64,000 nt of DNA from assembly GCF_054482595.1 (NCBI RefSeq), contig NZ_CM137008.1; one strand, given 5' to 3'. A program made the position numbers. Below, piece by piece: positions 50,301-53,300 of this stretch. Each line of letters opens with the position of its first letter. The first letter of the stretch is position 1.

Positions 50301-53300
50301 GCCGCGCAGTTTTGCCAGCATTGGCTGAGCGTTCTTTACGACAAAATTGTTGGTATCAAGATTCTTCATTTCACGAAGAAGTGATTTCTTGGTTTCTTCT
50401 GACATGTAGCGAGTCTCATATGCAATATCGTAAATCCTTCCTGAAAGCTCAGAACCAATTTGCTTCATTCCTGGGTAGATGTGTTTGCACATTTGTTGAC
50501 TCTTCTCCATCCACAATTGTAAGTAGCAGAGATTAACCAGTTCTTCGTCAGTAAACTGTTTTGCAATCGGTGAGCATTCTGCCTGCCGATCCAAAATATC
50601 CAGCACCCAGCGGCGGAACTCTTTGGCTACCTGAGTGCGAGCAAACATCGCGATTAGGTGGGCACCGCGTAGTGAGAAAACACGCACTTTTTTGCGATAA
50701 TTTCCTGAGGTACTCACTTCGAGTACCTGAGTCATTCCGGCGCTAAACTCATCGCTATACTTGTTATAAATCATTGTTACTGCACGACTATTTGCGTATT
50801 TAAGTGCAGATGCAATATTAGATGATGTAAACCAAACACCATGCATATCACGGGTGGGCACCAATTCAACTCCGTGGAAGTTATAATCTGATTTTGCTAC
50901 AATATTCATGTTAGTTTCCTTGCATACGGTTACTGACATAGAGGCCCGGTTTGTGTTCACGCACTGCCGGGCTTCACTATTTTTACTGGGCATTAGCTCT
51001 TTCCTCTCTCAGGCTTTTAGCCAGTCGCTGCACAATCGCAGAGTTGATAGAAATTCCATCCATTTCAGCAACACGTCTAATCTCCTCCTTCATTCGCGCT
51101 GGCAAACGAAGCTGGAAACTTTGACTTTTACGACCTGTGTAAAGCACATCTTTCATAAGTAATCCTCCCACAATGATACCAACTTGGTTCTAGAACCAAT
51201 TTAACACCATTTATTTTGATGTCAAGTTGGTGCTATTGTTTAGCGAACATCTTTACGTTGAGGTCATATGAGCAAGTTCCCTAGTCATGAAATGGATAGG
51301 TTCAATATCAGGCTTCCTGCAGGAATGCGGGATGCTATAGCTGAACGAGCCAAACGTAACGGCAGATCAATGAACTCAGAGATTGTTCAGATACTGGAAG
51401 ATGCCTTGAATGCAGAAAATACACTCGGGGAAATAGCAGATAAAATCAACAGCGTCTCGGTTCCGCTAAATGTTGATGCGCTAGTTCAACTTCAAGCCCA
51501 GGTTATCGCCATGCAAAAAGAAATACAGGAAAAGTTCAGAGAGCAGAACGAAAAGTTGAGAGAACTGCTAAACAAAAAAACCACCTGACGGTGGGTTAAT
51601 TTTTGCCTTTTTTGGACCATATTGACTACTCATAAAATGAGATCAATATTTAATCGCCCAATAACGGGTGCATGTTGAGGTATATCATGGCGAAAAAACC
51701 AGGTGAAAACACAGGAAAAAACGGCGGAATATACCAAGAAGTTGGCCCGCGCGGAGGTAAGAAAGACAATTTTGCCACCGTCAAGGACAACGAAAGGCTT
51801 CCGCCAACAACAAAGCCAGGTCATGGCTGGGTATTAGATAAGCGAACTCCAGACAGCAAAAAGTAATAATCAAGCCGGGTCACTCCGGCTTTTTGATATG
51901 TCGCTCGCAGAACTCAACAAGCCTGCTCATTAAGTAGCAGTAAGTCTCGTTGGCTCTTCCTGGTTCAACATCAACGCCGACCCTTGAGCAGATATCGAAT
52001 GCCATGTGAGCGCACTCATGGGCAATAGTAGATAGTTTGCCATTGAACACACCTATCACATGCAAAACACCATTCTCGCTGCTCATTGTATGAGACGCTC
52101 CGTTGGCATCCGAGTCCTGCACGTCCACGCCAAGTTTTTGATGCAGGCGTTGCCATTCTGGAAAGTCTCTGCAAAACACAATTGTACCGCTCTCAAAGAG
52201 CGGAACGAGCATTTTTGGTACGTTTCCAATGTTAACTTTTTTCATGGTATCCTGCTCAAAACTAAGGAGGTTGGTGTGAAGAAAAAATTTGTAAACGTTG
52301 CAAAGTGCGCAATTTTTATATTTTTTATGACCTTTTACGGATTTAGTGCCGGAGAAGGTTTCGATCGTGATGCCAATGCATTCAGTTTCTTTTGTCTGTC
52401 TATAGTGGTCATAATTGTATGGGTGGAATTAAAGCAAACATTGTTTCATGTGCTAGGGAAATAACCATCCATGGCATTTAGTCACTGCTGTGTTGCCTCA
52501 GTGGCAAGCAGCGGTCTGATGGCATTTGCAGCGTTACTTAATGCTCTTTCATAGGCTGGCGTTCCTGCTTTGGTGTTTGCCAGACGTAAGAGCGCATTCC
52601 TGGCCATAGGGCTTTCATAAACCCTCGACATAAGGCCAATCCCTGTTTCCCCAGCCAATAGCGCGCCTCCGGTTTTTAGGTTACCAATAACCCTTACCAA
52701 AGGCGCGAGTGTCATGCCAGTCTTCGTCACAACATTAGCCTCAGATGCTCTTTTGGTAGCATCGAGAATAGATAACATCCCCTCTATCTCTTTTCCGTTC
52801 TTCCCACCAAATACAGTTTTAAACACCTGACCATTTGCTTGTTTTTGCAGCTTGCCAAGCTCGGTCATCATTTTCTGAGGGCTGTCACCTACCTTGTCAG
52901 CTATTTTGCTGATATATGCCGCCCTTAGCATGTCTTTACCTTTTTGATCGAGTTTCCCGTACAATCGAGCTATATCTGACCCATATTGTCCATACACAAT
53001 GGTATTTACAGCCTCGGGAGTTAAATCTCCTTTGTTTAGAACGTTTTTAAGGCGCGTTTGAGTTGCATGTGTTGCCATTTTTGCATAATCAGCTTTTCCC
53101 GCTCTCCATGCTGAAGCATCTTTTGGGCTAAGTCCTTTCGCTATAGATTTACTAAGGCTATTGGTTAGCGAGTTATAGACCCTGTCGACCATTGTTTGCG
53201 ACATTGATGGCAGAACTGTACGATCGCCTTTTACGTCAATGCGGAACTGAGTTCTCAGCTTATCAAGTAACTCAAAGGCATCATCTCCATTTGTTATCTC

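What the first reader, a model, noticed from the sequence alone, without database searches (positions are those of the whole stretch)
51600..52481. Cargo cluster at the sieA-equivalent position: HExxH 121-aa protein, YjzC-like small protein and a possible 62-aa membrane peptide
In P22 the interval between gene 16 and mnt holds the superinfection-exclusion gene sieA. Here it holds different genes: a 121-aa protein (51880..52245, minus strand, co-directional with the late genes) containing HECAH (an HExxH zincin-type motif) but otherwise unrecognisable; a 59-aa basic protein (51687..51866) on the mnt strand; and a possible 62-aa hydrophobic peptide (52276..52464) with a perfect AAGGAGG RBS. Convergent genes share a hairpin terminator at 51873..51897. 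This spot is a known hotspot for superinfection-exclusion cargo in P22-like phages, so these genes are candidates for a new exclusion or defence function, for example a small metallopeptidase acting on an incoming phage or host protein.
Basis: partly seen in the sequence, partly recalled or inferred. Interest (0 to 1): 0.6.

Follow-up and report, generated by a model that had tools for sequence, protein, structure and literature searches.

The report
P22 backbone genes plus swapped sieA cassette
[quoted passage not shown] Only the 62-residue membrane protein really replaces the exclusion gene sieA, so it is a plausible but untested new blocker of incoming phage.

Summary
All three ORFs, the HExxH motif, the AAGGAGG ribosome-binding site and the hairpin exist and are real genes or signals. 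The premise that they differ from P22 is wrong for two of them. Window 51572-52278 is 97.5% identical to P22 DNA. The 59-aa gene is P22 orf59a. The 121-aa protein is identical to HK620 HkcC and to an intact, often unannotated, P22 ORF. Identity stops exactly after the GTG start of sieA, so only the 62-aa ORF (52276-52464) is a replacement. Among 83 related loci this slot holds 11 unrelated proteins. Ten start at the same GTG, and all carry an N-terminal signal peptide, lipobox or membrane helix. The 62-aa gene is under purifying selection (dN/dS 0.14-0.34), is predicted to form a two-helix membrane hairpin, is unrelated to SieA, and is unannotated in 88 complete E. coli genomes. HkcC belongs to an unannotated phage family of at least 551 clusters with invariant HExxH plus a Glu about 20 residues on, the gluzincin signature. 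It lies on the late-operon strand and also occurs in virulent phages, so it is probably a lytic-cycle accessory peptidase, not prophage defence cargo. All functions are inferred. Interest is moderate to low.

The parts
51268..51588 (+). mnt-type Arc/MetJ-family repressor gene (106 aa). This is context. The mosaic junction with P22-type DNA lies at about 51572, inside its 3' end.
   Evidence: PHROG 1287/3178 Arc-like. Identity to P22 begins at query position 373, which is window 51572.
51581..51594 (.). Hairpin CCACCTGACGGTGG at the mnt stop codon, with T-runs on both strands. It corresponds to tMNT of HK620.
   Evidence: Terminator scan. HK620 annotates 'tMNT' at the equivalent place.
51687..51866 (+). 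orf59a (HK620 HkcD), a 59-aa basic protein of unknown function.
   Evidence: Differs from P22 orf59a at a few residues only. PHROG 3202 at E 7e-31. Weak Pfam YjzC hit at E 0.0018.
51872..51891 (.). Hairpin terminator (P22 't mnt', HK620 'tORF59A') between the convergent orf59a and hkcC genes. It overlaps the last hkcC codons (KPE*).
   Evidence: 8-bp stem with 5 GC pairs and a T-run on the + strand. Annotated in P22-pbi and HK620.
51880..52245 (-). hkcC, a 121-aa predicted minimal gluzincin-type zinc metallopeptidase (H76, E77, H80, E100). It is co-directional with the late operon.
   Evidence: 100% identical to HK620 HkcC and to the P22 ORF. Family of at least 551 clusters. H76/E77/H80/E100 are invariant. 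AF2 model pLDDT 83. AFDB structural neighbours are labelled ImmA/IrrE, SprT-like and DUF4157.
52215..52245 (+). Sequence equivalent to the annotated P22 PsieA promoter. It lies antisense inside the first codons of hkcC.
   Evidence: Position transferred from the AF527608 annotation through alignment A1. There is one base difference from P22, at the edge.
52246..52275 (+). Conserved leader carrying the Shine-Dalgarno sequence AAGGAGG (52264-52270). It is shared by almost all cassettes of the slot, and is kept even where hkcC is absent.
   Evidence: The 48 nt upstream of the start codon are nearly identical (0-2 differences) in 10 of 11 cassette types. Kept in E. coli CFSAN018748, which lacks hkcC.
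52276..52464 (+). 62-aa gene in the sieA slot, encoding a predicted two-helix inner-membrane hairpin protein with a GTG start.
   Evidence: PHROG 21338 at E 4e-45. Hydrophobic segments at residues 5-21 and 32-48. AF2 helices at 2-25 and 31-61. dN/dS 0.14-0.34. Replaces sieA from the GTG onward.
52464..52475 (.). Short junction motif ACCATCCATGGC at the 3' end of the cassette. It reads GCCATCCATGGC in other cassette types.
   Evidence: Present directly after the stop codon in 6 of 11 cassette types and in L094-L097.
52482..54347 (-). Gene 16 homologue (DNA transfer / ejection protein). This is context, and it is one of the two proteins (gp16, gp20) in which mutations overcome SieA exclusion in P22.
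   Evidence: PHROG 770 at E 1e-242. Role of gp16/gp20 in SieA exclusion: PMC10883804.

Best explanation
The interval is the normal backbone of the P22/HK620 'ant moron' with one exchanged cassette.

(1) Backbone. orf59a and hkcC are convergent genes separated by a hairpin terminator. P22 and HK620 have the same pair.

(2) The sieA slot. Behind the PsieA region, the AAGGAGG ribosome-binding site and the GTG start, this prophage carries a 62-aa gene instead of sieA. The product is predicted to be a two-helix inner-membrane hairpin, made in the lysogen. Inferred: like SieA, it acts at the inner membrane against the DNA-delivery conduit of superinfecting P22-like phages. The conduit is built from gp7, gp20 and gp16.

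(3) HkcC. It is a minimal zincin. H76 and H80 on one helix, and E100 at the start of the next helix, would hold the zinc. E77 would be the catalytic base. Inferred: it is transcribed as part of the late operon during lytic growth and cleaves a host or competitor protein, as an accessory or counter-defence function. It is not a prophage-expressed exclusion factor.

Shown: gene identities, mosaic junctions, motif conservation, purifying selection and the predicted folds. Inferred: expression timing, membrane topology, zinc binding, proteolysis and exclusion.
For: Backbone:
- Window 51572-52278 is 97.5% identical to P22 DNA.
- The hkcC ORF is intact in P22 and SE1.
- The protein is 100% identical to HK620 HkcC and to the P22 ORF.
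- Five synonymous and no non-synonymous differences separate it from P22.
- The literature lists hkcC and 59a as P22 ant-moron genes (PMC2629481).

Slot:
- Identity to P22 and SE1 ends at the GTG.
- 83 loci hold 11 unrelated proteins. Ten start at the same GTG after nearly identical upstream sequence. All have an N-terminal lipobox, signal peptide or membrane helix.
- Only SieA carries a functional label.
- SieA is an inner-membrane protein; exclusion is overcome by changes in gp16 and gp20, and only 22 of 66 P22-like phages carry it (PMC10883804).

62-aa gene:
- 79-82%-identical 62-aa homologues occur in Salmonella and Serratia.
- dN/dS is 0.14-0.34.
- The gene always lies 17 nt from the gene 16 stop. 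In L094 it is co-oriented with mnt.
- AF2 predicts two helices.

HkcC:
- 551 clusters match at E<=1e-3.
- H76/E77/H80/E100 are invariant.
- The His-to-Glu spacing is 19-20 residues in 124 of 134 members.
- The AF2 model (pLDDT 83, pTM 0.80) has the order strand-strand-helix-strand-strand-helix(HExxH)-helix(E100).
- AFDB neighbours outside the family are labelled ImmA/IrrE, SprT-like, DUF4157 or 'metallopeptidase' (E 2e-6 to 1e-2, TM 0.55-0.76).
- 8 of 60 members give weak SprT-like Pfam hits.
- Relatives lie between lysis and terminase genes and in virulent phages.
- No promoter-like or terminator-like site separates gene 16 from hkcC on the - strand.
Against: - No experiment bears on any of the three proteins.
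- The 62-aa protein has no detectable similarity to SieA (BLASTP E 0.28; hhalign probability 0.2%). It matches nothing in PADLOC, NCBIfam or Pfam.
- In related prophages the 62-aa gene follows a Rap1a-type T6SS immunity gene or a lipoprotein gene. The slot is therefore not restricted to phage exclusion.
- The 62-aa AF2 model has only moderate confidence (pLDDT 69.5).
- The AFDB neighbours are themselves predictions carrying automatic names.
- Late expression is inferred from strand and position only.
- The contexts of HkcC relatives are heterogeneous and point to no particular substrate.
Confidence: 0.55

Rival explanations
1. First reader's reading. The whole cluster is novel cargo replacing sieA. 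The 121-aa HExxH protein is a prophage-expressed small metallopeptidase that excludes or defends against incoming phage.
For: The HExxH motif is real and conserved. The interval is a cargo hotspot. hkcC lies next to prophage-expressed genes: mnt, orf59a and the sieA-slot gene.
Against: hkcC coexists with sieA in P22 at 100% protein identity, so it is not a replacement. It is antisense to both lysogenic promoters and co-directional with the late operon. Relatives occur in strictly virulent phages and next to terminase genes. There is no PADLOC match.
Confidence: 0.08
2. The 62-aa membrane protein is not a phage-exclusion factor. It serves another envelope function for the lysogen, for example immunity to a bacteriocin or T6SS effector, a helper for the upstream periplasmic or lipoprotein cargo, or a small membrane toxin or regulator.
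For: In related prophages it is the second gene after a Rap1a-type T6SS immunity gene (Pfam E 2e-16) or after a 161-aa lipoprotein gene. It shows no similarity to any known exclusion protein.
Against: It stands alone in the slot in this window, in four of the IMG/VR loci (L003, L004, L006, L043) and in three distinct phages in four records: phiv205-1, UPF_BP1 and JEP4. So it does not need a partner gene. It occupies the position of the one characterised gene of the slot and abuts gene 16. Gene 16 is one of the two genes whose changes overcome SieA.
Confidence: 0.3
3. HkcC is an ImmA/IrrE-like anti-repressor protease that cleaves an immunity repressor: Mnt, Arc, C2, or the repressor of a co-resident prophage or satellite.
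For: It uses the same kind of zinc ligands (HExxH plus Glu). Some AFDB neighbours and one family member carry ImmA/IrrE labels. In P22-like phages it lies in the immI region near mnt.
Against: None of 60 members matches Pfam PF06114 at E<=0.1. Paralogues and distant relatives have no adjacent repressor gene. The gene is separated from mnt by orf59a and a terminator, and is convergent with it. From my own knowledge, not checked here, the classical genetics of immI did not reveal such a factor.
Confidence: 0.1
4. HkcC is not a peptidase. The conserved His/Glu/His/Glu cluster binds a metal for another purpose, such as a different hydrolase chemistry or a structural or regulatory site.
For: No significant match to any solved peptidase. 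At 121 residues it is smaller than characterised zincin peptidases known to me (own knowledge). Extra conserved cysteines (C25, C78, C86, C103) occur in the enterobacterial subfamily.
Against: The motif, the 19-20-residue spacing and the helix-helix arrangement are those of gluzincins. Every named structural neighbour is a zincin peptidase-type domain.
Confidence: 0.15

Closest known systems
P22 / HK620 'ant moron' genes hkcC and orf59a (HkcD), with the tORF59A terminator
   Same: Same genes. HkcC is 100% identical in protein to the HK620 and P22 ORFs. orf59a is near-identical. Order, orientation and hairpin are the same.
   Different: Nothing of substance differs. The neighbouring mnt allele is another type (106 aa against 83 aa), and the sieA-slot gene differs.
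P22 SieA (superinfection exclusion, inner membrane, types A-C)
   Same: The 62-aa gene uses the same slot between genes 16 and 9. It has the same upstream promoter region, Shine-Dalgarno sequence and GTG. It is also predicted to be an inner-membrane protein.
   Different: No sequence relationship. It has 62 aa and two helices, against 164 aa and about four. It lacks the FxRYPxEAxxFNK motif. Any exclusion phenotype is untested.
Small inner-membrane exclusion proteins of other phages (T4 Imm, HK97 gp15). This comparison comes from my own knowledge and was not tested here.
   Same: They are small proteins with membrane helices that are reported to block DNA entry; HK97 gp15 is made by a prophage, T4 Imm by an infecting lytic phage. 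This is the kind of mechanism proposed for the 62-aa protein.
   Different: No homology was detected to any PHROG family with such a label.
Gluzincin-type zincin metallopeptidases, especially the small ImmA/IrrE (M78), SprT-like and DUF4157 domains
   Same: HkcC has an invariant HExxH on a helix, a Glu about 20 residues later at the start of the next helix, and a preceding small beta-sheet. Predicted-structure neighbours carry these labels.
   Different: No profile match to PF06114. Only weak hits to PF10263. No third-His ligand as in SprT. No partner repressor as for ImmA. Only about 120 residues. No convincing match to any solved structure.
ST64T Orf-129, L Orf129, epsilon34 gp70 and ST104 orf47
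   Same: They are paralogues of HkcC (38-40% identity) in P22-like phages, with the same motif.
   Different: They are located between the lysis genes and terminase gene 3 instead of in the ant moron. Some phages carry both copies.

Membership tests
P22 orf59a / HK620 hkcC backbone genes | Near-identity in sequence, with the same order and orientation between mnt and the sieA slot | tested here: met
   97.5% DNA identity over window 51572-52278. HkcC is 100% identical in protein. Annotations of P22-pbi, SE1 and HK620 agree.
SieA (PHROG 7745) | Sequence homology to SieA types A-C, including the FxRYPxEAxxFNK motif | tested here: not met
   The 62-aa protein hits only PHROG 21338. BLASTP against P22 SieA gives E 0.28. 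hhalign probability is 0.2%. The motif is absent on inspection.
SieA (PHROG 7745) | Gene located between genes 16 and 9, behind PsieA, transcribed against the late operon | tested here: met
   Same GTG and the same 48-nt upstream sequence as P22 sieA.
SieA (PHROG 7745) | Inner-membrane protein | tested here: inconclusive
   Two hydrophobic 17-residue segments and two predicted helices (pLDDT 69.5). No dedicated topology predictor or experiment was available.
SieA (PHROG 7745) | Blocks DNA entry of P22-like phages; escape mutations map to genes 16 and 20 | not testable with these tools
   Needs plating and DNA-entry assays, as in PMC10883804.
Zincin / gluzincin metallopeptidases | HExxH motif conserved across the family | tested here: met
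   H76, E77 and H80 are invariant in 60 members and in 135-136 of the 136 aligned sequences.
Zincin / gluzincin metallopeptidases | Third zinc ligand is a Glu on the helix after the active-site helix, about 20 or more residues downstream | tested here: met
   E100 is invariant. Spacing is 19-20 residues in 124 of 134 members. It lies at the start of predicted helix 100-116.
Zincin / gluzincin metallopeptidases | Zincin fold: a mixed beta-sheet packed against the active-site helix | tested here: inconclusive
Zincin / gluzincin metallopeptidases | Zinc binding and peptide-bond hydrolysis | not testable with these tools
   Needs biochemistry.
ImmA/IrrE (Pfam PF06114, peptidase M78) | Match to the family profile | tested here: not met
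   No PF06114 hit at E<=0.1 in the query or in any of 60 members.
ImmA/IrrE (Pfam PF06114, peptidase M78) | Adjacent cognate repressor gene | tested here: not met
   No repressor lies next to the relatives in L083-L090, ST64T, mEp021, phCDa, Kurepalu-1, Lolek or KP8. In the window, mnt is two features away and convergent.
SprT-like (Pfam PF10263) | Match to the family profile and a third His ligand after HExxH | tested here: not met
   Only 1 of 60 members matches at E<=1e-3 and 8 of 60 at E<=0.1. No conserved His lies downstream; the conserved ligand candidate is Glu.
YjzC-like (Pfam PF14168), for the 59-aa protein | Match to the family profile | tested here: inconclusive
   E 0.0018, score 19.0, covering 46 of 59 residues. 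No NCBIfam hit.
Known anti-phage defence systems (PADLOC-DB) | Match to any defence protein model | tested here: not met
   None of the three proteins matches. The other slot cassettes give only two marginal hits at E 0.0025-0.0041.

The most novel reading that the evidence does not exclude
Two linked ideas remain open.

(a) The PsieA-leader-GTG site of P22-like prophages is a plug-in expression socket. Unrelated envelope-targeted immunity proteins are swapped in at a fixed junction. These include phage-exclusion factors, T6SS-immunity-like proteins and lipoproteins. The unannotated 62-aa hairpin protein would then be a new, minimal superinfection-exclusion protein that blocks the gp7/gp20/gp16 DNA conduit.

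(b) HkcC defines a large, wholly unannotated family of roughly 120-residue phage zincins, which would be small for a zincin peptidase. They would act as lytic-cycle counter-defence proteases against host or rival-prophage proteins.
Probability: 0.2. Interest if true: 0.65.

Novelty: new member of a known kind. Interest (0 to 1): 0.35.

Why it matters
If the 62-aa protein excludes phages, it would be a far smaller blocker of podovirus DNA delivery than SieA. The ten other uncharacterised cassettes behind the same promoter and start codon would then form a ready-made panel of envelope-acting immunity candidates. The fixed junction at the start codon also shows how prophages can exchange such genes without disturbing expression signals. 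The HkcC result gives a testable biochemical hypothesis, a minimal zinc peptidase, for a gene that has been 'unknown' in P22 and HK620 annotations, and for hundreds of unannotated phage proteins. In practical terms, the 62-aa gene is missing from RefSeq annotation in all 88 complete E. coli genomes that carry it.

Tried and rejected
- Family libraries. Pfam, NCBIfam and PADLOC scans of the three proteins gave nothing except the weak YjzC hit.
- Solved structures by sequence. PDB sequence-profile searches with 19 and 60 HkcC relatives found no meaningful hit; the best was myroilysin at E 0.13.
- Word-indexed protein searches. Every HkcC relative is named 'hypothetical' and has no Pfam domain, apart from two apparent chimeric gene calls.
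- Longer HkcC relatives. I looked for informative domain fusions. They have only low-complexity charged tails or unrecognised N-terminal regions.
- 62-aa protein as a shortened SieA. A BLASTP patch overlaps SieA's conserved C-terminal motif but is not significant (E 0.28). hhalign gives 0.2% probability. Rejected.
- 62-aa protein as a class II holin-like protein. Considered and rejected: it is transcribed against the late operon, behind the lysogenic PsieA region, and in L094 it is co-oriented with mnt.
- HkcC as an ImmA-type anti-repressor protease. Not supported by gene context (see membership test).
- Literature. A search for 'hkcC' returned only unrelated acronyms. A search for 'orf59a' returned only the SieA paper. 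'MPTase-PolyVal' returned nothing.
- Second HkcC copy. tblastn found none in the window.
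Full report
**Context.**
- The window from about 47.3 kb onward is the late end of a P22-like prophage.
- Gene order: tailspike (47341-49266, -); two anti-repressor genes (49466-50245 and 50283-50993, -); arc (50983-51171, -); mnt (51268-51588, +); the three ORFs of the finding; then gene 16 (52482-54347, -) and gene 20 (54347-55711, -).

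**Observation.**
- The 121-aa ORF (51880-52245, -) contains HECAH.
- The 59-aa ORF lies at 51687-51866 (+).
- The 62-aa ORF lies at 52276-52464 (+). It starts with GTG, five nt after AAGGAGG (52264-52270).
- A hairpin at 51872-51891 is followed by a T-run on the + strand.
- Each ORF matches a PHROG family of unknown function, at E 1.4e-39, 7.3e-31 and 4.3e-45.

**The premise is wrong for two genes.**
- Megablast against phage genomes shows that window 51572-52278 is 97.5% identical to P22 itself, and about 97% identical to SE1, ST160 and others.
- In P22-pbi this stretch carries orf59a, the terminator labelled 't mnt', and PsieA. The 121-aa ORF is intact there but not annotated.
- SE1 annotates the ORF as 'similar to HK620 unknown protein'.
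- tblastn shows the protein is 100% identical to HK620 HkcC and to the P22 ORF.
- HK620 annotates the order as gene 16, hkcB, hkcC, 'bidirectional terminator tORF59A', HkcD (the orf59a equivalent), tMNT.
[quoted passage not shown] It also reports ten moron types in sixteen genomes (PMC2629481).
- So orf59a and hkcC are backbone genes, and P22 has hkcC in addition to sieA.

**What is actually swapped.**
- In the three-way alignment, identity between the window, P22 and SE1 runs through ...AAACTAAGGAGGTTGG(T/C)GTG. It stops at the codon after the GTG.
- P22 continues with sieA (164 aa). SE1 continues with a 109-aa ORF. The window continues with the 62-aa ORF.
- I fetched 80 IMG/VR loci that encode HkcC and read the ORF behind the conserved leader.
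- Together with P22, SE1 and the window, these 83 loci hold 11 mutually unrelated proteins, plus two loci with only an 11-codon remnant.
- Ten types start at the very same GTG after a nearly identical 48-nt upstream sequence (0-2 differences among the representatives).
- The eleventh type, a 161-aa lipoprotein with an LAGC lipobox, diverges just after AAGGAG.
- Every type begins with a lipobox, a signal-peptide-like segment or a membrane helix.
- The 3' end abuts the gene 16 stop codon, at -4 to +57 nt; one type is an exception at 184 nt.
- Six types keep a GCCATCCATGGC-like motif right after their stop codon. In the window this motif is at 52464-52475.
- Only SieA carries a functional label in PHROGs. 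Apart from weak sub-threshold hits attributable to coiled-coil composition, none of the other cassettes matches NCBIfam or PADLOC.
- The SieA paper reports that SieA is an inner-membrane protein. Exclusion is overcome by changes in the C-terminal parts of gp16 and gp20. Only 22 of 66 P22-like phages have a sieA homologue (PMC10883804). The sections I read (the abstract, the section on sieA diversity and keyword passages) do not mention non-homologous occupants of the slot.

**The 62-aa gene.**
- It has 79-82%-identical homologues, also 62 aa long, in Salmonella and Serratia.
- dN/dS is 0.14-0.34.
- The central loop GEGF(D/N)RDxNxF and the C-terminal WVELK..LFH.LG stretch are conserved, invariant at most positions.
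- Hydrophobic segments lie at residues 5-21 and 32-48. AF2 predicts two helices, 2-25 and 31-61, with pLDDT 69.5.
- With four Lys near the N-terminus (residues 2-4 and 10) and an acidic loop, the positive-inside rule suggests an N-in/C-in hairpin. This is inference.
- In the homologous loci it is the second gene after the 161-aa lipoprotein gene (L096-L098), or after a Rap1a-type gene (L094, L095; Pfam E 2.2e-16). It always lies 17 nt from the gene 16 stop and has its own GGAGGTTAGTGTG-like start region.
- In L094 it is co-oriented with, and downstream of, an mnt-type gene. That fits expression in the lysogen.
- It occurs in 88 of 5,426 complete E. coli genomes and is annotated in none of the eight listed rows. 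In a further genome checked, the CDS is also absent.
- In E. coli CFSAN018748, hkcC is replaced by a P63C-domain gene. Even so, the 33-nt leader GGTATCCTGCTCAAAACTAAGGAGGTTGGTGTG is kept.
- It is unrelated to SieA.

**HkcC.**
- There is no Pfam, NCBIfam or PADLOC hit.
- A profile of 19 relatives finds 551 clusters at E<=1e-3, and 152 at E<=1e-10, among 1.84 billion representatives. Nearly all are stand-alone proteins of 100-140 aa.
- In the 136-sequence alignment, H76 is invariant, and E77, H80, E100 and G49 are each conserved in 135. Y104 is nearly so.
- The second His and the Glu are 19-20 residues apart in 124 of 134 members.
- The AF2 model (pLDDT 83.4, pTM 0.80) has the order strand-strand-helix-strand-strand, then helix 74-88 carrying HExxH, then helix 100-116 starting at E100.
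- That is the arrangement of gluzincin metallopeptidases, according to my knowledge of that clan.
- Foldseek against AFDB50 first finds family members, almost all 'uncharacterized'. Next come small predicted proteins labelled ImmA/IrrE, DUF4157, SprT-like, 'metallopeptidase domain' or PF06114, at E 2e-6 to 1e-2 and TM 0.55-0.76.
- Eight of 60 members give weak SprT-like Pfam hits.
- I therefore call it zincin-like by motif, spacing and predicted topology. I do not file it under M78 or SprT.

**Where HkcC relatives sit.**
- P22-like phages ST64T, L, epsilon34 and ST104 carry a 38-40%-identical paralogue between the lysis genes and terminase gene 3. Some phages have both copies.
- The same position is seen in mEp021 and in metagenomic loci L084-L086. 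In L087 the gene directly precedes the large terminase gene.
- Other relatives follow ParB-N and AAA-ATPase genes.
- Others lie in virulent Autographiviridae and Schitoviridae.
- In the window, hkcC is on the late strand. The simple scan finds no promoter-like or terminator-like site on that strand between gene 16 and hkcC.
- Together this points to a lytic-cycle accessory function.
- It does not identify a substrate. I propose cleavage of a host or rival protein (counter-defence), with low confidence.

**Verdict.**
- The backbone (orf59a, hairpin, hkcC) is already known as sequence and has no known function.
- The 62-aa gene is a new, non-homologous occupant of the sieA slot and a reasonable exclusion candidate.
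- As far as I could find, the new points are: the invariant zinc-site signature and breadth of the HkcC family; the fixed start-codon junction and uniform envelope targeting of the slot cassettes; and the missing annotation of the 62-aa gene.
- All functional statements are inferences.

Noticed in passing
L094 4644-4991 and L095 4644-4991 (related P22-like prophages): A Rap1a-type T6SS immunity-like gene (Pfam PF18602, E 2.2e-16) sits directly upstream of the 62-aa gene homologue, next to gene 16. The slot can therefore carry cargo aimed at bacterial competitors, not only at phages.
   Followed up: partly
window 52246-52278; L102 about 2975-3006: The 33-nt leader GGTATCCTGCTCAAAACTAAGGAGGTTGGTGTG is kept in front of the 62-aa gene in E. 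coli CFSAN018748. There hkcC, and with it the PsieA-equivalent sequence, is replaced by a P63C-domain gene. The leader behaves as a portable translation-initiation module and a second recombination junction.
   Followed up: partly
window 52464-52475: The short motif (A/G)CCATCCATGGC follows the stop codon in 6 of 11 unrelated slot cassettes. It is a 5-bp inverted repeat with a 2-nt spacer in the GCCAT form, and may be the 3' recombination junction. Its function is unknown.
   Followed up: partly
window 52276-52464; 88 complete E. coli genomes: The 62-aa gene has no annotated feature under the match in any of the eight listed RefSeq rows (88 genomes match). It is also unannotated in phages phiv205-1, UPF_BP1 and JEP4.
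   Followed up: yes
window 51622-51650 (+) and 51581-51594: A promoter-like site (TTGACT, 17 nt, AATATT) lies upstream of orf59a. A hairpin with T-runs on both strands lies at the mnt stop codon (HK620 'tMNT'). orf59a may therefore have its own promoter and need not be simply co-transcribed with mnt. These are consensus matches only.
   Followed up: no
window 51268-51588: The mnt allele (106 aa) differs from P22 mnt (83 aa). The junction with P22-type DNA falls inside the last codons of mnt, at about 51572. No complete E. coli genome in the collection combines this mnt allele with the 62-aa cassette over 80% or more of the 1.4-kb query.
   Followed up: partly
window 49466-50245 and 50283-50993: Two different anti-repressor-type genes (PHROG 1726 and PHROG 245) lie in tandem downstream of arc. 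P22 has a single ant gene there.
   Followed up: no
P0133, P0149, P0065, P0068, P0116 (distant HkcC relatives): Several relatives carry 40-70-residue Lys/Glu-rich, low-complexity C-terminal tails after the zincin-like core. Their purpose is unknown.
   Followed up: no
HkcC residues C25, C78, C86, C103 (window 51880-52245): Four cysteines are invariant in the enterobacterial subfamily, but only C103 is widely conserved. This may mark a second metal or redox site in this subfamily.
   Followed up: no
window 1-47000: The first roughly 47 kb of the window look like host chromosome. The prophage end lies near the tailspike gene. The attachment site was not examined.
   Followed up: no
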